Shown here in pieces: positions 124-22,929 of a DNA stretch of 64,000 bases. A model generated the notes under the pieces. It saw only the letters and a list, made by a program, of their open reading frames with translations. It ran no database searches and was not told where the DNA came from. Origin of the DNA: Schmidtea nova (lineage: Eukaryota); contig CM097882.1 of NCBI GenBank assembly GCA_044892505.1, positions 527,000,001 through 527,064,000 of the forward strand, given 5' to 3'. Numbering within the stretch: position 1 is the first letter of the stretch; each line of letters opens with the position of its first letter. The position numbers and the translations under genes are program-made.

Positions 124-129
124 TATAAA
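124..129 (+). promoter_or_regulatory. Candidate LTR TATA box (copy at 26352-26357)
   Basis: TATAAA about 60 nt upstream of the LTR ORF-A start. Motif only. Confidence 0.35.
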
Positions 130-184
130 TAATTGCGCGCACCTGACAAATTCACCACAATAACATATTCTTGTCTTCAGCAAT

Positions 185-820: not shown

Positions 821-970
821 TTGATGCAGCCGAGAAAGAATGATTGTCGTAGATATAAAAATATATGTATTTGTGTGAGAACGGTCTGGTTTTGTTTTGA
901 GTGCATGAGAACAACCTAAGGATAAGGTAGAGTTGTTTAATGACGATAGGATGACCGAAAGATCAGACAC

Positions 971-1570: not shown

Positions 1571-1966
1571 ATGTATAAAACGAATGACTTGACTTGTTTT
1601 GTTTGATTGTGGAATGTTTGAGAATCGAATGTAACAAAAACCCGGGTTCATTTAAAGCTGCAGATATCTAAAGAGTAAATTACCCTAGAACAAAGGAAAG
1701 AGCGCATTAGAAGTGGGACCGAAAGAAAGCCACAGACACCTTCTAACGGTAGTGGTGGACCCGTGAATAAACAAGGGAATAGTAGCCGAAAGGTTGCTCA
1801 CCTGCCTTGTCATTTCACAACGTTGACACAGTACCAACATGATGAGTAGTTAGGGATACATCATGGGTGTCAGCGGGGGAATGTTTTTATGTTGGCGAGA
1901 TTCACCCTAACGTATAAAATCATAAGGATCTCAGTTGTCACTCCAACCAACACACCAGCATAAATT

Positions 1967-1985
1967 TGGGGGCTCAGCCGGGATT
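1967..1985 (+). promoter_or_regulatory. Primer binding site complementary to the tRNA-Pro 3' end
   Basis: TGGGGGCTCAGCCGGGATT vs canonical tRNA-Pro PBS TGGGGGCTCGTCCGGGATT (17/19), 3 nt after the LTR end. Confidence 0.88.
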
Positions 1986-5088: not shown

Positions 5089-5964
5089 CCAACGAGAGAT
5101 GTCAGTGGAATTAAAGGTGAGTAGAGATGAGAATTGAAATGAAGTAGTAAACGCAGTATGAATAGGAAATAAAGCGAATAGTTGAGAAACAGAGTAATCG
5201 ATAGATAAGGGGAAATTTGAACTCAGAGCCAGAGAAGCCTGAGAAAAGTAAAGGGAATAATAAGAGCGCTGAGCGACAAAGTAATTGGGGAACTGGGGAA
5301 AAGTAATTGGTGTATTTGATAAAGAATAGATAATTGATGCGACTGCATAGATAATTTAAATAGACTTAAAATCAAGGGAAATGGGAAAAATGGGGATCTT
5401 CAGGAATTATGACTACACCCGTGAGAGGGACGAGAAACACGATAACGGGGACGTATCGTGTAAGTGATTATTTGTTTTAAGGAAACAAATCAATCAAGCA
5501 ATTCAAAGCAATCTAGCAGTCAGAGCAATCAAAGGAAACAAAGCAAAGAAGAAGCAAAGCAAAAGCGGAGTAGAAAATCAATTGAGAATATAAGAAGTTG
5601 AGGAATAGACAAAATTGAGGGACGAGAAACAAGATCAGGTATAATACCAATCTTAACGGAAGCAGAAAGAAAAGCAGCGAAAAGGACAAGAACAGGTAAC
5701 AAGCCTAAGCAACAAAAGAACAAACAAGTAGAGATCAGCGATAATTCGAGTAATAAAGAGAATCAAGAAGAAAACCCAGAAGATCTAGAAGTACAAAACG
5801 AAGTAGAGACGATAGACAGTGAACTAGTCAGGGAAAACAGAACAAGAAGCGAATCAAGAGATAACGAAACAGAGAGTAGTGAAGAAGAAGAGTCGAATCC
5901 GGAAACAAGTGGTGAACTAGAAGCAAAGAAAACTAGTACAGTATTCCAAGACAGTGGAATCGGG

Positions 5965-8900
5965 ATGAGTGAACACAGAGAGGATCTGAGAGAAAAATTC
6001 AAGGGCGAACCATTCAATGGAGACGCCAGTAGATTGGACACGTTCCTAAAGGAATTTGGCATATTTGTGGATATATGCGGATGGAGTGCAGAAACGTTAG
6101 CAAATCGAATCCCGCTATACTTGAAAGATAGCGCATTGGATCTGTATATTGAAAAGAGATCGGGAAGTAGTCCACCCAGAACGTGGGAAGCAATCAAGGA
6201 GTTCTTCCAACAGACGTTTGGGATAAATAAAGTGTTGAACGAAGCGTTCGATGAGTTCTCAGCAAGAAAACAAAGGAGAAATGAGTCAAATGCAGTGTAC
6301 GCAAGCGAATTAAGAAAGTTGGCGAAACTGGCGTTCAAAAGAGGAAGCCCGGTAGATGAGGAATTGATGACAGCGTTATTCGTACGAGGTCTCAGGAGAC
6401 CTGACATCAGAGCACAAGTGGGATGCAAAGGATGTAAAACAGTAGATGAAGCGTTGGAAGCAGCCAACCTATTCGAATTGCATATGGCAATGAATGACAT
6501 GAGAATTACGGCGGTAATGGGAAAAACGACAGAAGATGAAGAACAAGGAAAAAGAAACATGAATCAAAGTATTCCCCATTCGCAGAGATTGTTCAAAGAA
6601 CCGCCAGCGAGGAAGAATAACGGATATATTACGGTGAATACGAATGGAGGAAATAGTTACAATGACAGGCAGAATAGGCAATGTCAGACGTGTGGGAAAA
6701 ACGGACATTGGCAACAAGACTGTTTTCAGAATGTAGCCTGTAAACTGTGTGGACAAAAAGGTCACTCAGAAAATCGATGTTATGGGAAAACGTGTTACAC
6801 ATGTGGAAAAACCGGACACATGTCAAGAGACTGTAATCAACAGAGAAGTTGGTCAAACAGTGGAAATAGACCGAATTACGGGAATCGACCAAGCCATGGG
6901 AATCAAGGTCAACAACGGAACAACCCAAACAGCAGTGCAAACGAAGCTAGTATGAAAGAAGCTAAGTTGAGACAGGAAGTATCCAGATTACACGAGATAA
7001 TCGAAAGCATGGCAAAGGGAAGCCAACAAGCTGCTCAACCAAAGATAAACATGATCCAGTTAATAGAAGCTGAGGCCGAAAGAGAAAACAGAGAGAGTCA
7101 ACAGAAACATAATCAAGAATGGGCTAGAGTACGACGAGAAGAAGAACAAGTCAGGCAACAACGATTACAACAGTTAAAAAAGGGAAATCCAAGGATCAAC
7201 ATGATGCGAGCAATGATGGAAGAGAAGCAACAGGATGAGTCAGACGAGTTAGAAGTTAAAGAGAAAAGAAACGAAGAGCAGAAACAAGAAGAAGTGAGAC
7301 AGGAAGTAGAAACTACAGAGCAGAATCAAAAAGTGGAAGAAGTAGAAAAAGAAACAGAAACAGAAAAAGAAACAGAAAAAGAAACGAATCAAGAAGAGGA
7401 AGTGAGAATCAAACAAAGAGGAATGTTGGTGATCATGCCGAATGATCACGTGTGGCGATTCAAATACGATGTAAAAGAAGAAGTGGGAAGATTGTTCAAT
7501 AAAGTAAATGAGATGATGCCGGGAGTGACGAAACTGCCCAGAGAAGCATTCCTACAAACAGAGGATCTACCAGAAGTGAAGTTAAAGATGACTGATATAT
7601 GGGAAGATATGGGAGTAACGGAGACGAAAATAAACGTGATGATCATCAGAGAGGTGGAACCGGAGAAAATCCCACCACCAGTGAAACATCAAACTCGGAT
7701 CAGTCGAATATTTAAAGGAAAAATAAGACGGAGACGGTTGGAAGAAATAGATGAATTAGGGAAAAGGATGGGAAAAGCTGAAATAATGGGAGACGAGAGT
7801 GAAATAACACAGGAAGTTAGCAAAAACGAAGCGAGACCAATCGCGCATATTGGGATGCTGAGACACCCAAGACAAGAGTTGTCAGATGAGGAAGACGACA
7901 GCGAAGTTAGCAGTCTGGCAGGAGACATGCTAAAGGAACCAGAAAACGAGGACAAAAAGATGGAAGTAGTCGAGACAATAGAAACATTGTCAGTAACGGA
8001 AGACGAAATTCAGAAGCTGATGGATAACGCGTTGGAAGTAATCCATAACGAGGAGTTTATCGACGGGAACCGATATAGAAAGTTTATACGAGCAGTATGG
8101 CAGATGAAGTATAAAAAGTGGTTACAAGAAAGAGAAGTGAGAGTAATACAAGAGTTCATAGAGAGGTTATTGAAAGAACCACTCAACGAATACATAATAC
8201 AGATATGGATAAACGAGTGTTCACCGAGAATCTGGATAAGGAACCCAATGACGGATGGAATTTACCGATGGGTTGAAGACAGATTGGGAAGCTCGTACAA
8301 AGACAAATTCATATATTCGGAAAACGGATTGGTGAGAAAAGGAACGCATATGATAGACACAGGCATATGGCCAGGAGAAATAACAACGCTATCTATATGC
8401 AACACCAAAAAGGAAGAGAACTTACAAGGAATCGTCAAAGAAGCGAATACGTGTTACGAGATGAGAATAAAACCTCAGTTGCTAGAGGCAAAAGAAAGAA
8501 TCTTGGCAGAGAACTTAAATACGATGATAGAGCAGATCATCCAGCAAATCAAGAAACATCGAAAGGAATTGACGAAAAACGAGTATGAGAATTTGAAACA
8601 GTGTATCGAGAACATACGAGATACAAGTCAAACGAGACATTCGAATTTCAAAACGGACAAGCTAATTGCAAAGATGGGAAAAGAAATGTTTAAACGAGGA
8701 GAGGTATCAGACCTGAAGATTACCGTGAGATTGCCGAACGAAGAGACAAGACAAATTGAGGTAATACCAGATAGTAAAGTGGGAGAAATAGTAGATGTCA
8801 TCAATGAGACGATATTACAACGAGAACGAGAAGACGAATTCGAGAATGACATTGCGATAAAATACAAAGAACACCTACTAAACGAACGTGACGAAAGACG

Positions 8901-11900
8901 AGCGTATAAAATCGGCATATGGGATAATTATCAGACAATACATGTCATCAGAATGGATGATGTGCAAAGAGCAACACCAAGAGATGAGGAAAGGAAAAAG
9001 AAACGACAAGAGGACGTTATGCGTAAGTTGAGGCAGATAGTAGAAATCTATCGGAACTGGCAGATGAAGCCAGAATGGGAGACAATATTAGGAGAATTGG
9101 ATCTTAACAGACGACGATTGACGCCAGTAGAGAAGCAATGGGATAACAAAGAGAAATGTTGGAAAGTGAAAAGAGGCGTGTATGAAGAAGATCCAGAAGG
9201 AGAAGACAGATATGAACGGAATACGAAACGGATATGTATGGTAACAAGGAGGTTATTACCAACGGACTTAGACGGACCAGAAACTGCAGTAATATGGGCA
9301 GAATTGGAGAAACAGAAAACAAGTGAATTGATCGAGCTGTTGAGAGGAAATACTCGGGGAAAAAGACAAACAATAAAAGGCTTAGCACAATTCATAATCT
9401 CAAATGGGGAAGACATGACGAACTTGAGAAAAGTAGCTAAAGCGATAGCAGAATACAAGAGAGTAAATGAGTGGTGTCCGGAGCAACTAGACGATGTAAT
9501 AAAAAAGTGGAGAAACAAAGAGTTTGCGGAGGAAACGCCACAGAAAATACATTTGAGGATAATGTATCCAAATCAGAGAAAAGAAGAGTTTTGGGTGATG
9601 CTAACGGAAAAAGTGAAAAGTGTTAAAGAGAAACTGATGTACGAACTACCATTCCACCTGCAACATCAAGGACGATCGTTGGATAACAATTTGGAAATCT
9701 GGCTGACACCAGTGCAATTGGATCTAATGAATACGCTAACAGTGGCACAGATAGTGGGTCAACCACTGAAGTTTAAAGAGGAAAAGAAACCGAAAGGAAG
9801 CATGAGTACACCGAGTCCGATGAAGTCAACAATGACCCCAGGAACAAGTTCGGGACAAGCAAGGACAACACCAATAAAAACGAGAGAAAGAACACCGCCA
9901 GAAGCGTATGACGTCGATGAGATACTAACAGACAGTGACGAAGCGATAGAAGAATTAACGAAACTGACTCAAAAACCAACGGCGAATATTTTTGACAGAA
10001 TAATAGAGATGCCAATAACGTCACCAGCAGAAATCGACGATCAAGGAGTGGAACAGGAGGTAGTCATAGAAATGATAAACGATTCGGAGGACGAACAAGA
10101 ACAACCACAGTTTACCCAAGAAATGGAAAGATGGTTAGAACAACGAGCGAACGAAGGAAGAGATGTTACAGAAGAAACCGGAAGAGCAACGAGATTTGTA
10201 GAAACCGGAACTGGAATGGAAAAACGACCAAGAGGGAGACCAAAGATAGATCCAGCAACAACAATTCCAAAGACAAGAGAAGAAAGGAGACAAGAGCAAT
10301 GGGAGATTTGCTTGAAGAAACTGGATAAAATCGCAGAAATCAGAGGAAAAGAGGAGAATCAAGTCTGCCAAGAAGAATGGCTCACCAAAACGATAATGGA
10401 TGTGTTAGCGATAATTGACCCAGAATTAAAGAATTTGTGGCGGATAAACGAACCCAGTACAAAGGCAAAAATGCTACATAATGCAATAGCACCGATTATG
10501 CCAGAATTGATAAAGGCAAAAACAAAATCGAATCATCTAGATTGGCAAGGAACCACGATGTTGATAAAAAGGCTACTGAACGGAGCAGAAACGGACAGCA
10601 AATATCTAGTAGCAATCTCGTATACGATATACAATTTACTAACGCTAAGCCGAGGAAGTCCGAAGTCAAGTCCGATGGGAAGACATATCAAGAATACGGC
10701 GATGATTATCGAGAAAGAAATTGAACCATATATCCTCAGAAAAGGAGGATGGGAAAAGTTCATAAAAGAGAATCAGACAAAAGAAGGTTCTAACGTGATG
10801 AGAAAGAAACTCGAAGGAGTATTGAGAGAAATGGAGAATAGACAAACGATGCAAGGAAACGGAAGATCGACGTTGAATCTAAACTCGATAATCATGATGA
10901 TGCTAGTATGTTTGTTAAGCACAGAAGGTGTAACAACGTTCGAAGTATTTGATTGCGATCAAATGAAATTGGGAGAAAAGTACTCATTGAGAGGTACGGA
11001 GCAATGCAAAGACGCAACTCCAGTAGAATTGAAAGAGATTAAAAAAGAACAATGGTATCACGTGTATCAAGAGGCAGAACTAATAAAGACAATGGTGAAT
11101 GAATGCAAGGTACAGAAGACGAGATTCGCATTCTATTGTGGGAGAGGACATTATTCAGCAATTGTCATGCCAGGAACAGAAAGAGAACCAATCATATTAC
11201 AAGGGGAAGACTGCGAAGCATTATTTAAACATGGAGAAGTAACAACGAGAGATAAAATCAAGATAAAAGGAAAACCAGGAATGATGTTGCAGCAGACGTA
11301 TTATGTAGCAGGACGGATTACGGGAGGAGAAGGATATTGTCAAGGAGAAACCTACCCAATATTTGGAGCACCTGCAACCAACTTAGTGGTAATGGATACG
11401 TACATAGTCGAACTAAAAAGCTACGAAGCATTCTTCGAACCAACAACGGGAGAAATGAAAACGTTATCCATGTGTAAAATTGACAGAAGCATGTGTCAAA
11501 CGGGAATGTCAACATTGGTGTACAAACCAAAAGTGAACGAATGTCAATTACAACTGCTACAAGGAGCAAAGTTCGACGAAATTCAAGGAAAAACGTTCCA
11601 AGAAGAGGACGATGATGACAAGGCTAGAGCAAAACATCTCAAAGAAGCTTTAGAGAACAAAAGACAACTGAAATCAGAGCAGAGAGAAAAACGGATAGAG
11701 ATGAGAACCACACCAACAGTGTTGATAACCACCAATCAGGATGTGGGAATGAGATTCATAAAAGGGAAAGCAACCCTTAAGTGCAGTACAACAGTATACG
11801 AAACAAACTATCCAGGAATATACGTGTCGAAACAAGAAGTGCCGAATGCGAAACCAAAAATTGACACAATGGATATCAAGCTACACTTGTATGTGAATAA

Positions 11901-14900
11901 TAAAATGGATTTCTTATTCCATAGAGGACAAGCCTCATTACAAAAAGTGTACTACGATCTGATAAATAACGATTGTATACTGAATCGGGAAATATTGAAG
12001 ACAAAGTTGGCCGTAGCGATTACGAATCCAGATAGCGCGATGCCGTTATTACCACTGAGAGAAGGACATTTCGGAAGAGTGGTTGGAGAGGCAATGTATG
12101 TATACATTTGCGAAAAGACACACGCATCGCTAGCAGCAACAACGCAGTTGAAACCTGGACAATGTACAAACGAACTAGAAATCGATTATAAAGGAAAAGT
12201 ACGATACGTTCAACCGGTGACGAGAATCATCAATCCACCAGGATTTGAACCAAATCCATTCAACTGTAGTAACGCGTACGGACCGCTTTATCAGAAGCCA
12301 GATGGCAAATGGGTAATGTTCCCAGGAAGAACCGAAGTATTAGCACCAAGAGAATTCGAGCTAATGCAGTTATCGAAGGATAGACAGTTCAGCGACGTAG
12401 ATGTCTCAAACAACGGAATCTATAGTCCAAAGGATTTAGAAGCAGCAAGGCAGAATATATTATTCCCGGCAAGAAGAGAAGCATTACTGTCAAATATCGT
12501 AACGATAACGGGAGGAACGGAGTATCGAGAAGGACCGAATTACGAACTGCTGTTGTCACCGGCACATTTCAAAAAAGCCACGGAAAATATGATGAAGGCA
12601 ATGTGGGGAAGATTCCTGATATTCGGACAAATGATGGCTGGAATACTGGGTGTCATATTGATAATACAAATTGTCAGAGTGATAATAACGCAAATGTTAG
12701 CGTGTTTCGATATCTACAAGAGAGAAAAGAAAGTGAATTGGAAGATGGTAGTAGGATTTTTACCATTCCTTGCGAAAACGATGGTGTTGCACGGACACTC
12801 AAAAGACATACATCGAATAAAGAGGTTATTGAAGATACTTGCAAAAATGAAAGGAACAAACGAAGATGTCGGAAGGAAATTCAAAAAGATAATGCAAGAC
12901 GAACAAGCAAGGCGACAACTCAAGAAAGAAAGGAAAGGATTATGGGAAAGAGTGAGAGGATATCGAACACAAGATGATTCAAGTAATGATGAGGATGACG
13001 ATGACGATCGAGGAGGACAAGCGAATATAAACCAGATTCCACAGTATAACGAAAAGAGTGCAGTTGAGAATTGGAGATACAGCGCTCCACCTCAGTCAAT
13101 GTACAACGAACCGATATACAAAGCGAAGCCGAATATGATGCAGATGATGCCGATGACAAGTATATACCCGATAATTCCAGAAGGATGCAAAGTAAAACGA
13201 GGTAGTAGCGTAAACTCGTTGGAAGACACGCACACGATAGCAGTTATGTCCACAAATATGGGACCCATCTTAACAACAACCGTAGAAATAAACGGAAGAG
13301 AAATCGAAGCTATGATCGATACAGGCGCGAATATTTCGGCGATCGACATTAATTATATACCAGAGAAAAATCAAGGAGAAATCGAGAAGACGAATGTACA
13401 TGTAATCGCGTGCAGTCAAGAGACAGTAGAAGTAGCCGGAAGATGGTTTGTAAAAATTAAGCATCGAGGTGCAGAGATCAACACGTACATCGCTGTAATA
13501 CCATCGCTGAGTGTACCATGTATTATTGGAACTGACCTGATGCCAGACCTGTTCAAGGAAATCGTAATTGATCTAGGAGCAATGAAGCTAAAAGATAGAA
13601 CAGGAAAAATCTGCAGAATGAAAGTTAAAGTAGCAAGCGCGGAACAAATAGTAGTGCCAGCGAGACATGAAATGATGTGTTATGTCAAGATCGATTCGAC
13701 AATCAAAGGAGACATGATATTCGAACCAAATAAGAAGTTCGAAGCAAAGAAAGAATTACCAATGGCAAGAGAATTGGTTACGATAAATCAACAAGGAGAA
13801 ATACCGATTAATCTGGTAAACTTCGACGAAGAGGACAAGATAATATACGAGAATGAGAATTTGGGTAAATTGACACCCATGTCCGAAATCGAAATACCAG
13901 ACAAGAATGAGAAAAGCAAAGGCGAATTACCATGGAAAATCGACAGTGTGTTGTTAGACGAACGACAAAAAGAACAGTTACAGAAACTGTTGATGGAATA
14001 TAAAGATATATTCGCAGCATCAGATTTAGATCTAGGAACATGTGATGTAACATTACACACGATACCGTTGACGGACGAAACGCCAATCGCATTACGACCA
14101 TATAAATTGGCAGAAGCTCAAAAAGCAGTGGCAGAAGAAGAGGTACAAAAGATGTTAGATGCAGAGGTCATCGAACCCAGTTGCTCACCCTGGCAATTCC
14201 CGGTGGTGATGGTGAAAAAGAAGGATGGAACTCAGAGATTCTGTATCGATTACAGACGATTGAACGCAGTTACGAAAAGAGATACGTACCCACTGCCAGA
14301 CATAAACGAAATGCTGTTGACACTACAAGGAGCAGCTTATTTCACGTCACTGGATTTAAAAAGCGGATATAGGCAGATCAAAATGAAAGACGAGGATAAA
14401 GAAAAGACAGCATTTACAATCGGACGAGATCTGTACCAATTCAAGAAAATGCCGTTTGGGTTAACAAACGCGCCAGCATCATTCCAGAGATGCATGAATT
14501 TCGTAACACATGGCATAAAACAATGCATGGTGTATATCGACGATCTATTGATCTACTCCGCAACATTTGAAGATCATTTACAAGACATCAGAAATGTGTT
14601 CGTGAAATTAAGGCAGTGGAAACTGAAATTGAAGCCGTCAAAGTGCGATTGGGCAAAAGAGAAAGTGACATTCTTAGGTCACATTGTATCAGCAAAAGGA
14701 AAAGAACCCGATCCAAGGAATATCGAAAAAGTCAAAGAATGTCCACCACCCAAGACAGTGACTCAAATACAAGAATTTCTGGGATTGTGTGGATATTATC
14801 GAAAATTCATCAAGGACTATGCAGGAATATCAAAACCAATGCAAGAATTGGTAAGACAAGATGTGTCGTTTGTATGGGGAATAGAACAGCAAGCAGCATT

Positions 14901-17900
14901 TGAAACATTACGAGATAAGCTGATTACAGCACCAATACTGGTCCATCCAGATTTTAAGAAGCCATTTCTGTTGGCAACAGATGCAAGTGGATACGCAGCA
15001 GGAGCAGTACTAGGCCAATTTGATGAAGAAGGCAAAGAGAGAGTAATCGGATATTACAGTCGAACGTTCAGGAAGCATGAAAGGAATTACTCAGTCACGG
15101 AAAGAGAAGCCTATGCGATAATATTGGCAATCAAGCATTTCAAATACCTATTGTGGGGTCATGAAATATATATCACAACGGATCATCAACCGCTAGTATG
15201 GTTAGGTCAACATAAAGAATCGTCAAGTAGATTGATGCGTTGGGCGATGCAGTTACAGGAATACTCGCCGTTCATAAAGTTTAAAGCAGGAAAAGCAAAT
15301 GCAAACGCGGATTGCATGTCAAGGTTTACATTTCCAGAATTGGTGAACCTGAATGCTCTAAAAATATGTGCATTAATAGCGGAAGATTTGGATTTCAGCG
15401 AACTAAGGAAAGATCAACTCGAAGATGAGGAGTTGGGATTGATCAGCAAGTATTTGAAAGAAAGGGAAATAGAAATATTCGGCAAGAACCAAACGTTGCG
15501 CGAACATATGCAGAAATATCAGCACCGATACGTGATGGAAAAAGGATGGTTATTGATACAAGATGGAGAACGAAGATTAATGTGCTTACCTGCGAATAGA
15601 CGAAAGGAAATCATGACTCAATATCATGACGGAAAATTAGGTGGACATATGTCAGCAAAAAAGACAATCGGGAGATTGAGACAAAAGTATTTTTGGCCAA
15701 CCATGGAAGATGATGTGAAAGAATGGATAAAGAACTGCTTAACCTGTGCGACAAGAAAGAACGTCGGAACGAAGTGGAAAACACCACTAAAACCAATGCC
15801 AATACCTGCAGAACCTATGGCGACGATAGCAATGGATGTAGTTGGGCCATTGCCGGAAAGTTTAAAAGGAAATCAGTACATATTAGTAGTCACGGACTAT
15901 CTAACAAAGTTCCCAGAAGCATTCGCAATACCGGATCAAAAGGCGAAAACAGTCGCAAGAATATTGGTGGAAGAGATATGCTGCAGATACGGAACACCAA
16001 AGAAAATCCTAACGGATCAAGGAACAAATTTCATGAGTGAAATATTGGACGAAGTTACGAATTACTTCAGAATTGCGAAATTACGAACATCCCCATACCA
16101 TCCACAAACGAACGGACAAACAGAAAGATTCAATGGAACATTGATACGCATGTTGTCAAATTACGTCAGCAAACATCAAACTGACTGGGACGAGTATATC
16201 AACTTGTGTTTAATGGCATACAGAATGTCAATACATGCGGCAACAAAGCTAAGTCCATTCCAACTGATGTACGGAAGAGATTGCAACTTACCGATCGATT
16301 TAGAATACCAACCACCATTATCACAGTATATGGAGGTTGACGATTACGTTACAAAGTTCAAAGAAAGAATGCAAGAAATCTGGAAAACGGCGGAACTGAA
16401 CATCAAGTTCTATCAAGAAAGTTATAAGGATCTACATGATCAGAAAAGGAACGTGAAAGCACATGATTTAAAAGTTGGAGATTGGGTGATAATCGAAACA
16501 CCAGAGATAATACCCGGTACGGTCAAGAAACTCCAACGACCAGGCAAAGGGCCATACGAAATAACAACCGTAAACGAAAATAATGTGCGAGTACGATTGG
16601 TGAACAATCCATTGGTAAGACCGATATACGTGAATGCATGTCGATGCAGGAAAATACCAAAGACAGCAACTCTATCACCAGAGAAACGGGTGATGACAAG
16701 ATCACAGACGGCGAGAATTAATATGTTGCGAGTACAACAAAAGCCGCAAACAAGTCTAGAAGACAACCGAAGAGAAGTAATAGACCTCAAAGAACTGGCA
16801 AAGAGGACCAGAGAAATTATACCAGAATGGAAATGGTGGTTCGATTTCAATATACTGTCAGAAGTACGGAAGAATGTAATGGAGTATGCGAAAGACAGGA
16901 CAGCGCATCCAATAACAAGAACGCTGCTAGAGGAGATCCCTCAGACATTGAATCTACAAGACAAAGATGGAAACACAGCGTTGCACAATGCAATCAAGCA
17001 CGGTGGAAACGAAAAAGTGAAAGAGATTGTGGAGATGATACTCGAAGGTGGAGGAGAAATTGACAAAGTGAACTGGGAAGGAATTACTCCACTGATGATG
17101 ATGACCATTCACGGAAGAAACGATGAGATAATCAAGCTATTCGGAAACACCAGATCGAATTGGATGACAAAAGATAAAGAAGGACGAACATTCTTGAATC
17201 ATGCAATTGATAGAGCGAATCACCGAATACTGAAGTATATTACGGAAAATGCCACGTGGGAAATCGACGAACTAACCAGAGGATCAATCATGAAACAAGC
17301 AATCGGGGTAAGGAACAGTAAAACCTGGAGAATATTGCTGAAGTGGAAACGACCAGAAGGAGATTCATGGGTCGTAAATTGTAATGAAGTATTCACAAGG
17401 GGAGAAAATGCGTTACTGAAACATCTACTAGAGGTAACATACGATCCAAAAACACTTGCAGTATTGATAGCGAGAGATACGCTACGGGTTAGTGAGAACC
17501 CAAGAGAATACAAGCTGGAAGACAGAAAGAAAGAATTATTCGGATTAATCAAGAGATGGTGTGATAAACAATGGAATCCGGATATGAGCTTCGAACATTT
17601 CTATGACATCCAAAAGCAGCACAAAGAAATAAGCAAGCAATATAAAGAGCTGATAGAAGCATTGAAATATGGACAGTTCTTCAGACAAGCAGTGTATCAA
17701 GACCAACGAATGAAACAGATGCAAACGCGAATAAGAAGCAAAGCAGTGTTGTTCAATGCAAAAGCTGATTATCAAGAGAGATTAGACGCAATCGTAGCAA
17801 AAGCACAAGAAAAACTATCGGACTTCAAAGGGAATAAAAACTCGTTGGAGATACTAGGAGCGATTAAAGAAAAAGTGCACAGATACGCACAAGGAGATTA

Positions 17901-20862
17901 TAACGAGAATGACATAGAAACGATCAAAAATCAAATGCCAGTGGCATTCCTATTATCGAAGGATTGGAGATTGCCGATACACTGGGCATTACGTCGAAAG
18001 AAAGAAAACGAAGTGTTAGAAATAACGAAAACAATGGTCAAGTGCGAAGCAGATATGAATACGGTTGATGATAATGGAGATACAATCATGATAATCGCAG
18101 CAAGGAAGAAGACGAACTGCAAAGTGCTAAGTGAATTATACGAAGCAGGAGCAAAAATCGAAGGGAAAAATGGAAAGAATAATTCCATCATAGATATCGC
18201 AATACAGTGGAACAACTTCGAGATGATCAAGTTCATGAAGTCCATCAAGAAACAAGATGATATCGAATACCTGGCAAATAACGTAAAGAATTTCAGTCTG
18301 ACAGTAATGATACACGACATAGAGAAAACAAGAGCATTACTAACATGGGTGAATCCGATCACCAAGGAACCGGCATTCAAGATCAATGACCATATGGAAC
18401 AGAATCAGAATTGGTGTATCAGAAGCGCGTTGTTAAGACACAAAAAGCCAGAGATAGTAGAAGAATTCTTAAAGAGAAGAGATTTGAAGTTCACGAACAA
18501 TCCAAAGGAACAGGAACGAATGGGAAGATGGAAAGACTTGTTCAGAAAATATGTGAATGAATGGGCAAATGCCAAAGAAGCGATCAAGCAAAGTAGACTA
18601 AAGGACATAGAACCATCCAAGGATATGGAAATACGTGAATTCGAGTCTAGCACACTCGCGGTTCAAGCGTATGAAAGATTAATCGAAGAAATTAATGTCG
18701 AGGACGACATTTTTAAAGGACCAGGGGGTGGTTCCAAAGATCACAACGATAAAGGAGACGATGAAGAGAAGAACAACGAAGACAATGACAACAAAAGAAC
18801 GGAGGATAATGAAAAAGAAAGACAAGAAGAACCGAAGCCAACGAGAAACGACAAGAAAAGAGAAGCAGAAGAACGAGAAAACAGTGGAACAAAAGACGAA
18901 CGTACAAACTATGGAAAACGAACAGGAAGTCTACTTTTGAGACCGGAAATGTTGTGTATCGCGATATTGATAACAATCATAGGACAAGGAGAAGCCAAGA
19001 AACAATACGTCACGCTGGAAATAATCAGAGGAAACGAAGTATACGAAAGAATATGCTGGAAAGAAAACCTGAAGAAAAACGACACGCTGAAGTGTATATT
19101 GTCAGATCTGAAGCGAGACGTCATCCAAATCAAAGGATTGGAGAAAGAAAAGTCATACATAATATGCGCAATAAAGCAGAGAGGAGAACCAAAAGCACCT
19201 CAAGTAACTGCATGTCAATTATATAAAGCAACAGAAGCGCTGAAAATACAGAAATGGATTGGGAAAAGAAGCGAAGAGACAACGAGAAGAACAGAAGTGG
19301 AACCAGAGAAAGGAAAAAATCAAACCGAAGCAGAAGAGGGAATCAGAAACCGAACAGAGAAAGAAAGAACAACCAAAAATTCAGCGGGCAAATTAACATT
19401 CCAACCAGAATTGATATGTGTAGCATTAATATTAATCCTCATTAAGAGAATCATGGAGGACATAGATATCAGCGTGATGACGTTAGTAAACATCCAAGAT
19501 CAACGAACAACGAATGGAAGATGTTGGGGACGAAACAATGAGGTAATTGGAATCAGCGAAACAAGAGAAAGTCGAGAAGCAGAGACAAACGAAGAAATTG
19601 AGATAACCGAAATGGAGACAGATAGAAAATGTGAACTATGTCTCATGGAAAAAGCAGCAAACGGAAACAAACCAGGAACAAGCGAGTGTAAAGTGTTCCA
19701 AACAAAGGAGATAATTGAGTTCCCAAAAAGAAAGAAACAAGACCAAGAAACGATTGCGAAAGAAATAGTAACCGTGGAGATAAAAAACATTGGTCGGAGA
19801 ACAATTGGGATGTGTTGGAGAAAATACATCGGACTATCGACCAACAACATAATACCGCAATGTAAAACGAGAGAACGAGGAATCCCGTTTCAACTAAATG
19901 GATTCGAAGTCGGACAAGCTTACGAAATTTGCGTAATCCGAAGAATAAGAGAAGTAATACAAAGAAGCCTGGAGTGCAGACTGTACAAGACGCCAGAGCA
20001 AATTAACGGAACGAGAACGATTGAAATGGGAAGAAGTCAACCGAGGAAAAGAAAGTCAAGAAGAACCACAACAACCAACAGTCAAGGATTTCAACAGGCA
20101 ACAACAGAAAGGACGACAATAGAAAACGAACCAGAATCAACGACTCTGATAATATGGAAGATCCATAAAAAGGTCCTAGAAATCTGTTGGACATTAATGC
20201 CAAACAGTATGGGAAAGTCCCCACGAAACTGTCAAAAGACATCAAATGATAAAGGAGAAATAATCGAAGTAGAAATGAGGAAGTTGGAAATAAACGCAGA
20301 ATACGAAGTATGTGCAATTGAAGAAGTGGGTACACAAGGAAATCCACAAGAAAGGTGCGAAACCTACTACACACCAATAAAGAGGAGAATCAAAAAGTTA
20401 GAATTCCGAGAATTGAGTCAGAAAAGAGAACAAACAGAGACGGAGGAAATACTACAAAATCAACAAGAAAGATGGGAACCAGAGAAAGTGATCGAAGAAG
20501 TCAGACGGAGACAACAACAATACGAACAATGGGAAGCAGAATGGAAAGGTCAATATGGCGTGATGATAAACCAAAGTGAAACTCCGAAGATGAGCATTGG
20601 GAAAACAATAATGGGATTAATCAGCATGGGAGTATTCATAGGGTGTATACCGCTGATAACGATCATGATAGTATGTTGGAGATATGGCATGAGAAATAAG
20701 ACCATAGCAGTAAAATGGCCGGACGTAAAGGTCACGAACTACAACATAAAACTACCAAAAGAAGTACGAGAAGAGCTAAAAAGACGATCAAAACACGAAG
20801 AGATGTGGGTACAGATCGAGGACGAGGAACTGTACGAAGGAAAACCAGTAATAGTTGTATAG
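5965..20862 (+). CDS. 4965-aa Gag-accessory-Env-Pol-accessory polyprotein
   Basis: Single open frame containing CCHC knuckles, glycoprotein, PR, RT, RNase H, integrase, ankyrin repeats and a C-terminal membrane module. Confidence 0.97.
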   Translation: MSEHREDLREKFKGEPFNGDASRLDTFLKEFGIFVDICGWSAETLANRIPLYLKDSALDLYIEKRSGSSPPRTWEAIKEFFQQTFGINKVLNEAFDEFSARKQRRNESNAVYASELRKLAKLAFKRGSPVDEELMTALFVRGLRRPDIRAQVGCKGCKTVDEALEAANLFELHMAMNDMRITAVMGKTTEDEEQGKRNMNQSIPHSQRLFKEPPARKNNGYITVNTNGGNSYNDRQNRQCQTCGKNGHWQQDCFQNVACKLCGQKGHSENRCYGKTCYTCGKTGHMSRDCNQQRSWSNSGNRPNYGNRPSHGNQGQQRNNPNSSANEASMKEAKLRQEVSRLHEIIESMAKGSQQAAQPKINMIQLIEAEAERENRESQQKHNQEWARVRREEEQVRQQRLQQLKKGNPRINMMRAMMEEKQQDESDELEVKEKRNEEQKQEEVRQEVETTEQNQKVEEVEKETETEKETEKETNQEEEVRIKQRGMLVIMPNDHVWRFKYDVKEEVGRLFNKVNEMMPGVTKLPREAFLQTEDLPEVKLKMTDIWEDMGVTETKINVMIIREVEPEKIPPPVKHQTRISRIFKGKIRRRRLEEIDELGKRMGKAEIMGDESEITQEVSKNEARPIAHIGMLRHPRQELSDEEDDSEVSSLAGDMLKEPENEDKKMEVVETIETLSVTEDEIQKLMDNALEVIHNEEFIDGNRYRKFIRAVWQMKYKKWLQEREVRVIQEFIERLLKEPLNEYIIQIWINECSPRIWIRNPMTDGIYRWVEDRLGSSYKDKFIYSENGLVRKGTHMIDTGIWPGEITTLSICNTKKEENLQGIVKEANTCYEMRIKPQLLEAKERILAENLNTMIEQIIQQIKKHRKELTKNEYENLKQCIENIRDTSQTRHSNFKTDKLIAKMGKEMFKRGEVSDLKITVRLPNEETRQIEVIPDSKVGEIVDVINETILQREREDEFENDIAIKYKEHLLNERDERRAYKIGIWDNYQTIHVIRMDDVQRATPRDEERKKKRQEDVMRKLRQIVEIYRNWQMKPEWETILGELDLNRRRLTPVEKQWDNKEKCWKVKRGVYEEDPEGEDRYERNTKRICMVTRRLLPTDLDGPETAVIWAELEKQKTSELIELLRGNTRGKRQTIKGLAQFIISNGEDMTNLRKVAKAIAEYKRVNEWCPEQLDDVIKKWRNKEFAEETPQKIHLRIMYPNQRKEEFWVMLTEKVKSVKEKLMYELPFHLQHQGRSLDNNLEIWLTPVQLDLMNTLTVAQIVGQPLKFKEEKKPKGSMSTPSPMKSTMTPGTSSGQARTTPIKTRERTPPEAYDVDEILTDSDEAIEELTKLTQKPTANIFDRIIEMPITSPAEIDDQGVEQEVVIEMINDSEDEQEQPQFTQEMERWLEQRANEGRDVTEETGRATRFVETGTGMEKRPRGRPKIDPATTIPKTREERRQEQWEICLKKLDKIAEIRGKEENQVCQEEWLTKTIMDVLAIIDPELKNLWRINEPSTKAKMLHNAIAPIMPELIKAKTKSNHLDWQGTTMLIKRLLNGAETDSKYLVAISYTIYNLLTLSRGSPKSSPMGRHIKNTAMIIEKEIEPYILRKGGWEKFIKENQTKEGSNVMRKKLEGVLREMENRQTMQGNGRSTLNLNSIIMMMLVCLLSTEGVTTFEVFDCDQMKLGEKYSLRGTEQCKDATPVELKEIKKEQWYHVYQEAELIKTMVNECKVQKTRFAFYCGRGHYSAIVMPGTEREPIILQGEDCEALFKHGEVTTRDKIKIKGKPGMMLQQTYYVAGRITGGEGYCQGETYPIFGAPATNLVVMDTYIVELKSYEAFFEPTTGEMKTLSMCKIDRSMCQTGMSTLVYKPKVNECQLQLLQGAKFDEIQGKTFQEEDDDDKARAKHLKEALENKRQLKSEQREKRIEMRTTPTVLITTNQDVGMRFIKGKATLKCSTTVYETNYPGIYVSKQEVPNAKPKIDTMDIKLHLYVNNKMDFLFHRGQASLQKVYYDLINNDCILNREILKTKLAVAITNPDSAMPLLPLREGHFGRVVGEAMYVYICEKTHASLAATTQLKPGQCTNELEIDYKGKVRYVQPVTRIINPPGFEPNPFNCSNAYGPLYQKPDGKWVMFPGRTEVLAPREFELMQLSKDRQFSDVDVSNNGIYSPKDLEAARQNILFPARREALLSNIVTITGGTEYREGPNYELLLSPAHFKKATENMMKAMWGRFLIFGQMMAGILGVILIIQIVRVIITQMLACFDIYKREKKVNWKMVVGFLPFLAKTMVLHGHSKDIHRIKRLLKILAKMKGTNEDVGRKFKKIMQDEQARRQLKKERKGLWERVRGYRTQDDSSNDEDDDDDRGGQANINQIPQYNEKSAVENWRYSAPPQSMYNEPIYKAKPNMMQMMPMTSIYPIIPEGCKVKRGSSVNSLEDTHTIAVMSTNMGPILTTTVEINGREIEAMIDTGANISAIDINYIPEKNQGEIEKTNVHVIACSQETVEVAGRWFVKIKHRGAEINTYIAVIPSLSVPCIIGTDLMPDLFKEIVIDLGAMKLKDRTGKICRMKVKVASAEQIVVPARHEMMCYVKIDSTIKGDMIFEPNKKFEAKKELPMARELVTINQQGEIPINLVNFDEEDKIIYENENLGKLTPMSEIEIPDKNEKSKGELPWKIDSVLLDERQKEQLQKLLMEYKDIFAASDLDLGTCDVTLHTIPLTDETPIALRPYKLAEAQKAVAEEEVQKMLDAEVIEPSCSPWQFPVVMVKKKDGTQRFCIDYRRLNAVTKRDTYPLPDINEMLLTLQGAAYFTSLDLKSGYRQIKMKDEDKEKTAFTIGRDLYQFKKMPFGLTNAPASFQRCMNFVTHGIKQCMVYIDDLLIYSATFEDHLQDIRNVFVKLRQWKLKLKPSKCDWAKEKVTFLGHIVSAKGKEPDPRNIEKVKECPPPKTVTQIQEFLGLCGYYRKFIKDYAGISKPMQELVRQDVSFVWGIEQQAAFETLRDKLITAPILVHPDFKKPFLLATDASGYAAGAVLGQFDEEGKERVIGYYSRTFRKHERNYSVTEREAYAIILAIKHFKYLLWGHEIYITTDHQPLVWLGQHKESSSRLMRWAMQLQEYSPFIKFKAGKANANADCMSRFTFPELVNLNALKICALIAEDLDFSELRKDQLEDEELGLISKYLKEREIEIFGKNQTLREHMQKYQHRYVMEKGWLLIQDGERRLMCLPANRRKEIMTQYHDGKLGGHMSAKKTIGRLRQKYFWPTMEDDVKEWIKNCLTCATRKNVGTKWKTPLKPMPIPAEPMATIAMDVVGPLPESLKGNQYILVVTDYLTKFPEAFAIPDQKAKTVARILVEEICCRYGTPKKILTDQGTNFMSEILDEVTNYFRIAKLRTSPYHPQTNGQTERFNGTLIRMLSNYVSKHQTDWDEYINLCLMAYRMSIHAATKLSPFQLMYGRDCNLPIDLEYQPPLSQYMEVDDYVTKFKERMQEIWKTAELNIKFYQESYKDLHDQKRNVKAHDLKVGDWVIIETPEIIPGTVKKLQRPGKGPYEITTVNENNVRVRLVNNPLVRPIYVNACRCRKIPKTATLSPEKRVMTRSQTARINMLRVQQKPQTSLEDNRREVIDLKELAKRTREIIPEWKWWFDFNILSEVRKNVMEYAKDRTAHPITRTLLEEIPQTLNLQDKDGNTALHNAIKHGGNEKVKEIVEMILEGGGEIDKVNWEGITPLMMMTIHGRNDEIIKLFGNTRSNWMTKDKEGRTFLNHAIDRANHRILKYITENATWEIDELTRGSIMKQAIGVRNSKTWRILLKWKRPEGDSWVVNCNEVFTRGENALLKHLLEVTYDPKTLAVLIARDTLRVSENPREYKLEDRKKELFGLIKRWCDKQWNPDMSFEHFYDIQKQHKEISKQYKELIEALKYGQFFRQAVYQDQRMKQMQTRIRSKAVLFNAKADYQERLDAIVAKAQEKLSDFKGNKNSLEILGAIKEKVHRYAQGDYNENDIETIKNQMPVAFLLSKDWRLPIHWALRRKKENEVLEITKTMVKCEADMNTVDDNGDTIMIIAARKKTNCKVLSELYEAGAKIEGKNGKNNSIIDIAIQWNNFEMIKFMKSIKKQDDIEYLANNVKNFSLTVMIHDIEKTRALLTWVNPITKEPAFKINDHMEQNQNWCIRSALLRHKKPEIVEEFLKRRDLKFTNNPKEQERMGRWKDLFRKYVNEWANAKEAIKQSRLKDIEPSKDMEIREFESSTLAVQAYERLIEEINVEDDIFKGPGGGSKDHNDKGDDEEKNNEDNDNKRTEDNEKERQEEPKPTRNDKKREAEERENSGTKDERTNYGKRTGSLLLRPEMLCIAILITIIGQGEAKKQYVTLEIIRGNEVYERICWKENLKKNDTLKCILSDLKRDVIQIKGLEKEKSYIICAIKQRGEPKAPQVTACQLYKATEALKIQKWIGKRSEETTRRTEVEPEKGKNQTEAEEGIRNRTEKERTTKNSAGKLTFQPELICVALILILIKRIMEDIDISVMTLVNIQDQRTTNGRCWGRNNEVIGISETRESREAETNEEIEITEMETDRKCELCLMEKAANGNKPGTSECKVFQTKEIIEFPKRKKQDQETIAKEIVTVEIKNIGRRTIGMCWRKYIGLSTNNIIPQCKTRERGIPFQLNGFEVGQAYEICVIRRIREVIQRSLECRLYKTPEQINGTRTIEMGRSQPRKRKSRRTTTTNSQGFQQATTERTTIENEPESTTLIIWKIHKKVLEICWTLMPNSMGKSPRNCQKTSNDKGEIIEVEMRKLEINAEYEVCAIEEVGTQGNPQERCETYYTPIKRRIKKLEFRELSQKREQTETEEILQNQQERWEPEKVIEEVRRRQQQYEQWEAEWKGQYGVMINQSETPKMSIGKTIMGLISMGVFIGCIPLITIMIVCWRYGMRNKTIAVKWPDVKVTNYNIKLPKEVREELKRRSKHEEMWVQIEDEELYEGKPVIVV
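6682..6834 (+). other. Gag nucleocapsid: three CCHC zinc knuckles
   Basis: CQTCGKNGHWQQDC, CKLCGQKGHSENRC, CYTCGKTGHMSRDC. Confidence 0.95.
10873..12790 (+). other. Envelope-like glycoprotein domain (signal-like helix, Cys-rich ectodomain, TM)
   Basis: Hydrophobic LNSIIMMMLVCLLSTEG; FDC..SL..C and CKVQKTRFAFYCG Cys pattern as in chuvirus-type G proteins; TM MWGRFLIFGQMMAGILGVILIIQIV. Confidence 0.75.
13260..16730 (+). other. Pol core: aspartic protease, RT, RNase H, integrase
   Basis: DTG 13318, YIDD 14533, ATDAS ~14974, H-x(6)-H...CxxC ~15623-15750, integrase core D(MDV)-D(DQG)-E(TERFN). All catalytic residues present. Confidence 0.97.
16945..18245 (+). other. Ankyrin-repeat region fused after integrase (two clusters)
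   Basis: NLQDKDGNTALHNAI, KVNWEGITPLMM, TKDKEGRTFLNHAI, NTVDDNGDTIMIIAA, GKNGKNNSIIDIAI. Confidence 0.9.
18931..20862 (+). other. C-terminal type I membrane module with three Cys-bearing FN3-like repeats
   Basis: Signal-like LLLRPEMLCIAILITIIGQGEA; three repeats with xICW..C..(I/L)xGLExxxxYx(I/V)C..C (19009, 19768, 20140); TM 20596-20680. Confidence 0.65.
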
Positions 20863-21337: not shown

Positions 21338-21427
21338 TGAATAAGCGGAAAATTGTGTAAATACGTGTAAATAAAGAACCAGAAAAAATCAAAAATATGG
21401 GGAAATTGATGTAAATATTGTTGTAGA

Positions 21428-22840
21428 ATGAGAGCAGAAAGTGAAGCAGATTACCAAACGATCGAGATTCTAAGAAGAGAAAATCGACAATGGGGAGTAA
21501 ATGTGACGTGTGTAAAGTGTAAAAATCTACTGTTAAAACCGAGGCAAACGGAATGTGGATGCAGGATGTGCACCAAGTGTATATTGCAAATAATCAGTGA
21601 AAGTGAGACAAGAAAGTGTCCAGAGTGTGACGATAAACTACTAATCAACGAGACGAAACCAGACAAAGCAATCCAAAAGGAGATCTGGAAGATAAGAACA
21701 GAATGTATAAACCAACCTTGTGAATGGAAAGGACAAATAATCGAGCTAAGACAACATCTGGAAAAATGTGAAAACAAGAAAGCGATATGTGAAAAGTGTC
21801 AACAGACGATAACCATCAAGCAGTCGAAAAAGCACAAGGATGAGTGCAAAGCAGAGATAGTAGAGTGTCAATACTGCAAACAAAGAGAGACGAGAGAAGT
21901 AATCGAAACAGAACATCTCAACGTAGCAGAAGAGAAAGTGTGCAGAAAATTCAGAGGAATTTGTCCAAGTAATTGCGGAACCGGAGAAGAAGTGATGTTG
22001 AGAGAACATTGGGAACAGTGCGAATCCAGACCAAGAAAGTGCGTATGGAGTAAACAAGGATGTGCAGTACAGATAACGAGCAAAGAGATGAAAGAGCATT
22101 TGGAAACGGAAACGGTACAACACGCCGAGATGTTAACAGCAAATTTGAACGGAATGGAACAAACCATACAGAAACTGGGAAAAGAAATCGAATCTCAGAG
22201 GATAATGACGGAGTTATTACTAGAAACAAGAGAGCAATTCGAGCTCACCAGAGAGAAAATGATGGAGAAAATCAAAGTCATAGAGACGCTAGTAAAGGAA
22301 GTAAATGTACGACATCAAATGTGGATACGAGATACAGAGGATATCGAGAATTTACCTGTTGCACCATATATATGGAAAATCAAGAATTTCAACGAAAAGT
22401 TCGCAGCAGCAAGAGCAGGAAGCCAAGTGTCGGTAACAAGTCCACCATTTTATCTGTGGAAAAATGGATACAAAGTTCGAATGAGAATTTATCCAAATGG
22501 AGATGGATCAGGAAAGGAAACGCATGTGTCATTATTCTTTGCGTTGTGTAAAGGTGGTTACGACGACATATTAGAATGGCCACTAGAGACAAAGGCGATA
22601 ATGAGAGTGAGAAACTCGAAAGAAACAATAGCGAGAGTATTCAAAATTGATGGTAAGCACGAAGCTTACAAAAGACCGACCACAGAATGTTCATTAGCGA
22701 CTGGAGAACCAAAATTCATACCACACCAAACAATGTGGGAAATGTTGTATGACGACAACTTATATGTAGAGTTGGAGATCGAAAAGAAAGCAAGTACAAC
22801 AGTGACGAACACGAAGTCAACGAAAGGATGGTTGGAGTAG
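21428..22840 (+). CDS. Element cargo: full-length TRAF-family protein (RING, TRAF zinc fingers, coiled coil, MATH), intronless
   Basis: RING CVKC..PRQTECGCRMCTKC..CPEC; zinc fingers C.N..CEWKG..L.QHL..C; MATH YIWKIKNF..SPPFY..GYKVRMRIYPNGDGSGKETHVSLFF..DDILEWP. Confidence 0.95.
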   Translation: MRAESEADYQTIEILRRENRQWGVNVTCVKCKNLLLKPRQTECGCRMCTKCILQIISESETRKCPECDDKLLINETKPDKAIQKEIWKIRTECINQPCEWKGQIIELRQHLEKCENKKAICEKCQQTITIKQSKKHKDECKAEIVECQYCKQRETREVIETEHLNVAEEKVCRKFRGICPSNCGTGEEVMLREHWEQCESRPRKCVWSKQGCAVQITSKEMKEHLETETVQHAEMLTANLNGMEQTIQKLGKEIESQRIMTELLLETREQFELTREKMMEKIKVIETLVKEVNVRHQMWIRDTEDIENLPVAPYIWKIKNFNEKFAAARAGSQVSVTSPPFYLWKNGYKVRMRIYPNGDGSGKETHVSLFFALCKGGYDDILEWPLETKAIMRVRNSKETIARVFKIDGKHEAYKRPTTECSLATGEPKFIPHQTMWEMLYDDNLYVELEIEKKASTTVTNTKSTKGWLE

Positions 22841-22929
22841 TCAGAGTGAACGACCCTGTAAATAAAGTGTAAAAATCGACAACAACCATAAACGTATAGT
22901 ATAACCAGTGAAAATTTGTAAATTGCAGA

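What the first reader, a model, noticed from the sequence alone, without database searches (positions are those of the whole stretch)
10873..12790. Chuvirus-type envelope glycoprotein placed in frame between Gag and protease
Seen: a signal-like helix, a ~550-aa Cys-rich ectodomain beginning FEVFDC..SL..C with CKVQKTRFAFYCG, and a TM region, all upstream of the protease DTG in the same frame. Known: errantiviruses and retroviruses carry env as a separate 3' ORF, while chuvirus G and herpes gB-like class III fusogens have been captured by BEL/Pao elements. Inference: an independent fusogen capture by a Gypsy lineage with an unusual gag-env-pol order. The polyprotein must thread the ER membrane mid-translation, with Pol re-emerging in the cytosol.
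Basis: partly seen in the sequence, partly recalled or inferred. Interest (0 to 1): 0.82.

Follow-up and report, generated by a model that had tools for sequence, protein, structure and literature searches.

The report
Giant retroelement with built-in fusion envelope
This is a 29.5-kb Burro-type jumping gene whose single 5,000-residue protein carries a predicted herpes-gB/chuvirus-like fusion protein between its capsid and its enzymes, an arrangement already published; the protein likely threads the ER membrane twice and likely also releases a second, apparently undescribed surface protein built of fibronectin-like repeats.

Summary
The glycoprotein (Pfam PF24664, E 2e-73; the AlphaFold model matches chu-like G and herpes gB) sits in frame between Gag–Bcl-2 and protease. 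It lies in a 5,086-codon ORF of a young 29.5-kb Ty3/Gypsy element with thousands of candidate copies. This is the anatomy of planarian Burro elements, where in-frame gag-env-pol was described in 2019. gB-type GAG-ENV-POL elements of flatworms, nematodes and bryozoans were catalogued in 2026. The scan met a gypsy element with a chuvirus-type envelope before in another genome (e1-9887218). 'Independent capture by this lineage' is not supported: all 20 in-frame Env rows form one old clade.

Added here: (1) The internal helix looks like a conserved, cleavable signal peptide, so Pol would stay tied to the Env tail rather than to Gag. (2) In this element that helix also sits where a Bcl-2 tail anchor would. 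(3) After integrase and ankyrins come a second signal, four fibronectin-III-fold repeats and a transmembrane helix, a likely second surface protein that I did not find described. Env is under strong purifying selection. Verdict: new member of a known kind, with an untested but testable topology.

The parts
1..1960 (+). 5' LTR, right-hand part (3,294 nt in all; begins 1,334 nt before the window; TG...CA; 4-bp target-site duplication TAAG)
   Evidence: 3 mismatches to the 3' LTR over 3,294 nt
1967..1983 (+). primer-binding-site-like stretch just inside the 5' LTR (likeness to a tRNA-Pro site is recalled, not tested)
5602..20862 (+). ORF1: single polyprotein frame, 5,086 codons stop to stop (first Met at 5965)
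5965..6834 (+). Gag: Retrotrans_gag capsid plus three CCHC knuckles
   Evidence: PF03732, E 5e-6; zf-CCHC, E 8e-10
10324..10779 (+). Bcl-2-like domain ending in a BH2-type GGW motif (10744-10752)
   Evidence: profile of 8 rows hits Bcl-xL, E 3e-4; Pfam Bcl-2 in 5 of 8 rows; the window's row alone has no hit
10885..10938 (+). internal signal 1: predicted cleavable signal peptide, in the position of a Bcl-2 tail anchor
10939..12606 (+). Env ectodomain, 556 aa, class III (gB / chu-like G) fold
12613..12789 (+). Env transmembrane helix and membrane-proximal amphipathic segment; 92-97% identical between families
12790..13248 (+). Env cytoplasmic tail/linker ending in TIAVM, a candidate site for the element's own protease
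   Evidence: motif recurrence; inferred
13276..13548 (+). aspartic protease (DTG at 13318)
   Evidence: RVP, E 6e-9
14212..16557 (+). RT (YIDD 14533), RNase H, integrase (H2C2, core, GPY 16549), in Gypsy order
16939..18240 (+). ankyrin repeats
   Evidence: Ank_2, E 3e-20
18931..18996 (+). internal signal 2 (predicted), present in all six frames aligned
18994..20379 (+). four Cys-bearing fibronectin-III-like repeats (18994-19236, 19462-19710, 19753-19998, 20125-20379) with Thr-rich linkers and a short conserved hydrophobic segment H3 (19408-19449)
   Evidence: fold predicted and searched for repeat 4 only
20617..20862 (+). C-terminal transmembrane helix (20617-20679) and short tail
21410..22840 (+). 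accessory ORF: full-length TRAF-like protein (RING-like, TRAF zinc finger, MATH)
   Evidence: MATH_2, E 1e-27
22912..24090 (+). accessory ORF: charged, coiled-coil-like protein
24158..24688 (+). accessory ORF: small protein with a signal-like start, a helical middle, a TM helix and a basic tail
   Evidence: no significant family
24895..28188 (+). 3' LTR

Best explanation
This is a young, high-copy Burro-type Ty3/Gypsy endogenous retrovirus-like element whose one ORF encodes Gag, a Bcl-2-like domain, a gB/chuvirus-type Env, Pol, ankyrins and four fibronectin-III-like repeats, and the polyprotein is likely processed like a flavivirus or alphavirus polyprotein by crossing the ER membrane twice. 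Shown: the single frame, the domain order, the predicted folds, the conservation and the purifying selection. Inferred steps: (1) Gag to Bcl-2 is made in the cytosol; the helix after Bcl-2 acts as an internal signal and is cut by signal peptidase before F-E-V-F-D-C, leaving the Gag-side product anchored by it. (2) The Env ectodomain folds in the lumen and its TM helix stops transfer. (3) PR-RT-RH-IN-ankyrin emerge in the cytosol attached to the Env tail, not to Gag. Pol would then reach budding particles through Env and be freed by the element's own protease near TIAVM. (4) A second internal signal sends the Fn3 repeats into the lumen as a separate type I membrane protein, likely an attachment or host-modulating partner of the fusogen.
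For: Fusogen: PF24664 at E 2e-73. An HMM of 113 homologues hits only herpesvirus gB in the PDB, 33 of 33 sequences at E up to 1, best E 0.004. The AF2 model has pLDDT 90.5, matches gB at E 1e-13 and chu-like G at E 2e-36, TM up to 0.75. Signal 1: in 13 of 13 polyprotein-type relatives and 6 of 6 G000 frames checked, a hydrophobic stretch lies directly before xx[AGV][YF]DC, mostly ending in small residues. That motif lies within the first 90 residues of 74 of 87 stand-alone homologues, after a signal-like stretch in most of the 45 rows printed. Best-11 hydropathy is 2.5-2.9 in G000 against a median of 2.61 for 63 stand-alone N-terminal signals. Selection: synonymous sites are saturated between families (pS 0.76-0.78 in the ectodomain) while the ectodomain stays 65-79% and the TM region 92-97% identical, like RT at 93-95%. 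Second module: signal 2 and the final TM are kept in all six frames aligned. Repeat 4 folds at pLDDT 84.9, and the 50 best VIA rows are Fn3 domains or Fn3-containing chains by their titles, best Z 8.0, rmsd 2.8 over 76 residues. Three more distant relatives (P0007, P0009, P0153) also end in signal...TM...tail after integrase.
Against: No topology predictor (SignalP, DeepTMHMM) and no experiment was available; cleavage, orientation and Pol packaging are inferred. The conserved hydrophobic segment H3 between repeats 1 and 2 (best-11 hydropathy 3.0-3.8, followed by KR) would flip repeats 2-4 into the cytosol if it stops transfer, which the simple model does not explain. The Bcl-2/GGW motif precedes the signal in only 4 of 17 relatives, so the double role of signal 1 is lineage-specific. 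The Fn3 call rests on one repeat: Foldseek E-values are 0.02-0.08, Z 8 is in the range the tool calls common, Pfam is weak (fn3 E 0.14), and the repeat profile has no PDB sequence hit. The repeats are not detectably homologous to the relatives' C-terminal modules (hhalign probability 0.3%). Nothing here shows particles, fusion or infection.
Confidence: 0.68

Rival explanations
1. Splicing solves the topology: an Env-skipping RNA makes ordinary Gag-Pol, and/or a subgenomic RNA makes Env from a Met near signal 1, so the single ORF is only the unspliced form.
For: Retroviruses and errantiviruses make Env from spliced RNA (established knowledge). The signal holds two to three Met residues in G000 frames.
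Against: No strong pyrimidine-tract acceptor was found on the + strand between 1960 and 24900, and no Met upstream of signal 1 is conserved across all six frames (a crude scan of an A-rich sequence). Both Env junctions stay in frame in every family examined, which a splice model does not need.
Confidence: 0.12
2. Signal 1 is leaky: part of the chains miss it and stay cytosolic as Gag-Env-Pol, which supplies Pol to capsids, while the rest supply membrane Env.
For: An internal signal after 1,640 cytosolic residues may be used inefficiently (inference). This would keep the usual Gag-linked packaging of Pol.
Against: Signal 1 is as hydrophobic as ordinary N-terminal signals of stand-alone homologues. 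A cytosolic form would still carry the Env TM helix and signal 2.
Confidence: 0.12
3. The topology is as proposed, but Env is not used to enter other cells. It serves intracellular budding or fusion (ER, nuclear envelope) or receptor interference, and the element spreads within one cell lineage.
For: No call shows extracellular particles. The 2026 survey says the entry mechanism of gB-type errantiviruses is unknown. Accessory genes point to host-cell manipulation (Bcl-2, TRAF, ankyrin).
Against: An intact class III fold with conserved Cys columns, strong selection and a second surface-type protein fit an entry apparatus more simply.
Confidence: 0.2
4. The glycoprotein is a passenger: a chance viral insertion or an assembly chimera.
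For: None found.
Against: 78 of 78 scored copies are 98-100% identical. The same order holds in other families, and Env precedes a protease in one ORF in 9 of 14 outside proteins scanned. Purifying selection is strong.
Confidence: 0.01

Closest known systems
Burro (GYPSM1, Burro1-4) giant Gypsy elements of dugesiid planarians (PMC6431247, section 7 read)
   Same: About 30 kb; one ORF of about 5,000 aa; Gag with three CCHC; Bcl-2-like domain, then Env in frame, then PR-RT-RH-IN; ankyrin repeats; TRAF/MATH; thousands of copies; Env hits to mononegavirus glycoproteins.
   Different: Here TRAF is a full-length separate ORF downstream of ORF1 (inside ORF1 in Burro1, upstream in the Dugesia tigrina element). 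No BIR hit here. That paper linked Env to gypsy Env and F-type proteins, whereas the fold here is class III gB. It does not mention internal signals, topology or a C-terminal Fn3/TM module in the text read; its Fig. 2A could not be seen.
HSV/gB-type GAG-ENV-POL 'ancient errantiviruses', Platyhelminthes group C1a: Smed_errantivirus_1-6 (PMC13524379)
   Same: Same order and Env class. By eye, the window's domain I matches Smed_errantivirus_5 at 66 of 157 ungapped positions (42%), with shared PGTERE and GMRFIKG.
   Different: A distinct family (pairs among the six published ones shown are 31-64% identical). The paper's main text has no occurrence of 'polyprotein', 'in-frame' or 'Burro' and does not treat processing.
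Chuviridae and related Monjiviricetes glycoprotein G
   Same: Same Pfam family; best structural matches; same xx[AG]YDC mature start after a signal peptide.
   Different: Stand-alone about 650-aa proteins with an N-terminal signal; about 22% identity. The two named chuvirus rows lie outside the in-frame clade.
Mosquito BEL/Pao elements with chuvirus-like G (Dezordi 2020; search listing and citation only)
   Same: Same glycoprotein family captured by an LTR element.
   Different: Different superfamily, and G lies after integrase. The one DUF5641-linked row here (P0055; Pao label recalled) falls far from the in-frame clade.
Flavivirus and alphavirus structural polyproteins (recalled)
   Same: Works like them in the model proposed: capsid, internal signal, glycoprotein, TM, further domains, cut by signal peptidase and a viral protease.
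   Different: No homology; analogy only.

Membership tests
Ty3/Gypsy (Metaviridae) | Paired LTRs with TG...CA ends and a short target-site duplication | tested here: met
   3,294-nt LTRs, TSD TAAG
Ty3/Gypsy (Metaviridae) | PR-RT-RH-IN order with integrase GPY/F module | tested here: met
Ty3/Gypsy (Metaviridae) | RT nearest to Ty3-type enzymes | tested here: met
   the Ty3 RT entries lead at E 9e-89 and 3e-88; no RT tree with reference clades was built
BEL/Pao (Belpaoviridae) with chuvirus G | Pao-type protease and C-terminal domains, G after integrase | tested here: not met
   retroviral RVP-type protease, no Pao-type family at E up to 0.1; G before PR
Burro | About 30 kb with a single ORF of about 5,000 aa | tested here: met
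   29.5 kb, 5,086 codons
Burro | Gag with 2-3 CCHC, then Bcl-2-like domain, Env in frame, PR | tested here: met
Burro | Ankyrin repeats and MATH/TRAF cargo | tested here: met
   (TRAF in a separate downstream ORF)
Burro | Ubiquitin/SUMO-like and dUTPase-like segments (found by HHpred in the paper) | tested here: inconclusive
   no Pfam hit for two Ubl-like candidates or for the PR-RT spacer; HHpred libraries not available
Burro1 specifically | BIR domain, and MATH inside ORF1 | tested here: not met
   no BIR at E up to 0.1 in the ORF1 segments or the two accessory ORFs scanned; so Burro-type but not Burro1
Burro | Sequence kinship to named Burro1-4 / GYPSM1 | not testable with these tools
   reference sequences not held; Grohme 2018 not held
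Burro | Planarian host | tested here: inconclusive
   a flanking host gene has unnamed close hits and named hits only at 26% (rotifers); planarian host inferred from element kinship
HSV/gB-type ENV (class III fusogen) | gB-like fold with long central helix and conserved disulfides | tested here: met
HSV/gB-type ENV (class III fusogen) | Trimer formation and membrane-fusion activity | not testable with these tools
   a trimer exceeds the size limit of the complex tool; no assay
Chuviridae G | Nested inside the chuvirus G clade | tested here: inconclusive
   in-frame rows form their own clade (SH-like 99), apart from two named chuvirus G rows; tree unrooted, FastTree only, most stand-alone rows unnamed
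Fibronectin type III domain (C-terminal repeats) | Fn3 beta-sandwich fold | tested here: met
   for repeat 4 (best Z 8.0, rmsd 2.8, 76 aligned); the other repeats by alignment only

The most novel reading that the evidence does not exclude
A retrovirus-like element built on RNA-virus polyprotein logic: one ORF, cut twice by signal peptidase, yields a membrane-anchored Gag-Bcl-2 product, an Env-Pol fusion that packages the enzymes through the envelope tail instead of through Gag, and a second, Fn3-repeat surface glycoprotein that supplies the attachment or trigger function that gB-type fusogens usually borrow from partners such as gD and gH/gL.
Probability: 0.4. Interest if true: 0.72.

Novelty: new member of a known kind. 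Interest (0 to 1): 0.42.

Why it matters
The headline arrangement is known, so it is not a discovery. The element is still a good handle on an open question that the 2026 survey names: how gB-type errantiviruses enter cells without the herpesvirus partner glycoproteins. If the topology holds, Pol cannot be packaged as Gag-Pol, the rule for most LTR elements and orthoretroviruses (recalled), and would ride on Env instead. The second Fn3 membrane protein is a concrete candidate for the missing partner. With thousands of candidate copies and recent insertions, native RNA, proteins and particles should be easy to look for in the host.

Tried and rejected
RNA evidence: no RNA holder listed. Four contig runs of unrecorded kind from one study cover the whole stretch. 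Among the 15 of 44 joints shown, none has GT..AG ends skipping Env. A joint 10388>13988 with 17 other letters, in three runs, removes Env and protease alike and may be a deleted copy. Depth is about twofold higher over Env but cannot be interpreted. ESM Atlas gave no usable hit for Fn3 repeat 1 or the Bcl-2 region. A single-sequence PDB search with the Bcl-2 region found nothing. A search for longer homologues of the C-terminal module found none of 3,707 candidates (weak evidence). The IQ-TREE run did not finish, so only FastTree was used: 104 of 113 alignment rows with at least 70% coverage plus 8 added rows. The host gene did not name the host group. Within-family variant counts give pN/pS 0.05 for shared variants in the flanks and 0.01 in Env, but those 30 copies were chosen as best Env matches, so the Env value is biased low and is not relied on. 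A YPx[I/L] motif before the protease in all six G000 frames resembles an ALIX late domain (recalled), but such 4-mers are common; kept as a lead only. Grohme 2018 and Sacco 2022 are not held. No complex prediction was sent.
Full report
1. Observation. The stretch lies inside one stop-free frame, 5602-20862, of 5,086 codons. Pfam assigns the domain to Monjiviricetes_fusion, E 2e-73.

2. The element. Window 1-28188 is the larger part of a 29.5-kb LTR element. The LTRs are 3,294 nt, end TG...CA, differ at 3 places, and are flanked by a TAAG duplication, so the insertion is recent. ORF1 reads Gag (capsid, three CCHC), about 1,150 unassigned residues, Bcl-2-like domain, signal, Env, TM, PR, RT, RH, IN, ankyrins, second signal, four repeats, TM, tail. 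Three accessory ORFs follow, one a full TRAF-like protein. The RT is nearest to Ty3. In G000 the Env query gave 3,587 first-look candidates. All 78 scored are 98-100% identical, and 23 of them, the window included, keep stop-free frames of 5,076-5,091 aa. Five further G000 elements, in about three families 59-65% identical, keep Env before the protease.

3. The glycoprotein. A profile of 113 homologues hits only herpesvirus gB among solved structures (33 of 33 rows). The AF2 model (pLDDT 90.5) matches gB in the PDB (E 1e-13, TM about 0.4) and chu-like virus G in BFVD (E 2e-36, TM up to 0.75). Between families, synonymous sites are saturated while the ectodomain keeps 65-79% identity and the TM region 92-97%, as high as RT. 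It is a maintained class III fusogen-type protein; activity is untested.

4. Origin. A whole-library search found 943 relatives at E up to 0.001. The closest are embedded in polyproteins: 9 of 14 scanned have Env before a protease in one ORF, and 5 of these also hold RT. In a FastTree of 112 rows, all 20 rows labelled in-frame or fragment form one clade (SH-like 99, with one further fragment). That clade is apart from two named chuvirus G proteins and a DUF5641-linked G. The tree is unrooted and the labels partly follow similarity, so it shows an old shared lineage, not a donor. It gives no support to a capture special to this lineage.

5. Topology (inferred). In stand-alone homologues the motif xx[AG][YF]DC lies near the N-terminus (74 of 87), after a signal peptide in most rows printed. 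In 13 of 13 polyprotein relatives and 6 of 6 G000 frames the same motif follows an internal hydrophobic stretch as hydrophobic as true signals. The simplest reading is that the ancestral signal was kept and is still cut. Two consequences follow. The Gag-side product stays anchored by the signal, which here also sits where a Bcl-2 tail anchor would; this is lineage-specific, since only 4 of 17 relatives have the GGW motif there. And Pol is separated from Gag and stays on the Env tail until the element's protease cuts, perhaps at TIAVM, a motif that recurs at other domain borders. A crude scan found no sign of a spliced alternative.

6. A second membrane module. After the ankyrins, all six frames aligned have a second signal-like segment, repeats with three invariant Cys and a Trp, and a final TM with a tail. 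Repeat 4 folds as a beta-sandwich (pLDDT 84.9) whose neighbours are Fn3 domains in both Foldseek (E 0.02-0.08) and VIA (best Z 8.0). Three distant relatives also end in signal...TM...tail, but homology to these repeats is not detectable. The short conserved segment H3 is unexplained and could change the orientation of repeats 2-4.

7. Literature. [quoted passage not shown] PMC13524379 (abstract, first parts of sections 5, 6 and 9, passages, and rows of two supplementary files) lists gB-type GAG-ENV-POL Gypsy elements in Nematoda, Bryozoa and Platyhelminthes, including six Schmidtea families. The window's Env matches Smed_errantivirus_5 at 66 of 157 positions counted by eye. PMC8532177 (passages) shows that BURRO1 is transcribed and PIWI-controlled. 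Grohme 2018 and Sacco 2022 could not be opened; Dezordi 2020 was seen as a listing only. Searches and the sections read turned up no account of the topology or of the Fn3 module. Figures, Grohme's extended data and subscription papers were not visible and may hold it.

8. Verdict. Observation confirmed; interpretation partly supported; new member of a known kind. Identity as a Burro-type Gypsy element with an in-frame gB-type Env is about 0.95 likely, and the two-pass processing model about 0.68. Interest 0.42, rising to about 0.72 if Env-linked Pol packaging and a second surface protein are shown.

Noticed in passing
window 21410-22840: The element carries a full-length TRAF-like gene (RING-like, zinc finger, coiled coil, MATH) as a separate ORF; published Burro elements have MATH inside or upstream of ORF1.
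   Followed up: partly
window 24158-24688: Small ORF just before the 3' LTR with a signal-like start, helical middle, TM helix and basic tail: a possible third membrane protein. No significant Pfam family.
   Followed up: partly
window 22912-24090: 392-codon charged coiled-coil-like ORF, perhaps the 'Smc-like' motif noted for GYPSM1.
   Followed up: no
window 19408-19449: H3 resembles a copy of signal 2 without its cleavage region, suggesting duplication of a signal+Fn3 unit; conserved in all families aligned and unexplained.
   Followed up: partly
window 8692-8970 and 9532-9780: Two segments look ubiquitin-like by eye, in the place where Ubi/SUMO-like motifs were reported for Burro; Pfam gave no such hit.
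   Followed up: partly
window 3693-5092: The 5' leader holds 19-nt and 36-nt tandem arrays and six copies of a 41-nt motif spaced 84-97 nt apart.
   Followed up: no
P0153 (4,844 aa), also P0004, P0005, P0007: Related polyproteins hold several protease-like domains (seven stretches in P0153), some after integrase.
   Followed up: no
P0009: A 2,627-aa Env-Pol polyprotein of this clade is filed in NCBI as a Flavobacteriaceae MAG protein, probably a eukaryotic contig binned by mistake.
   Followed up: no
window 2001-25000: Strong purine, A-rich skew on the coding strand (AT skew 0.22-0.47) that ends at the 3' LTR.
   Followed up: no
window 50646-52613: Host gamma-tubulin complex component encoded in one 655-codon frame.
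   Followed up: partly
window 31377-32968, 29463-30113, 48020-48914: Inverted-repeat pairs (161 nt at 98%, 54 nt, 40 nt) that look like MITEs or DNA-transposon remnants.
   Followed up: no
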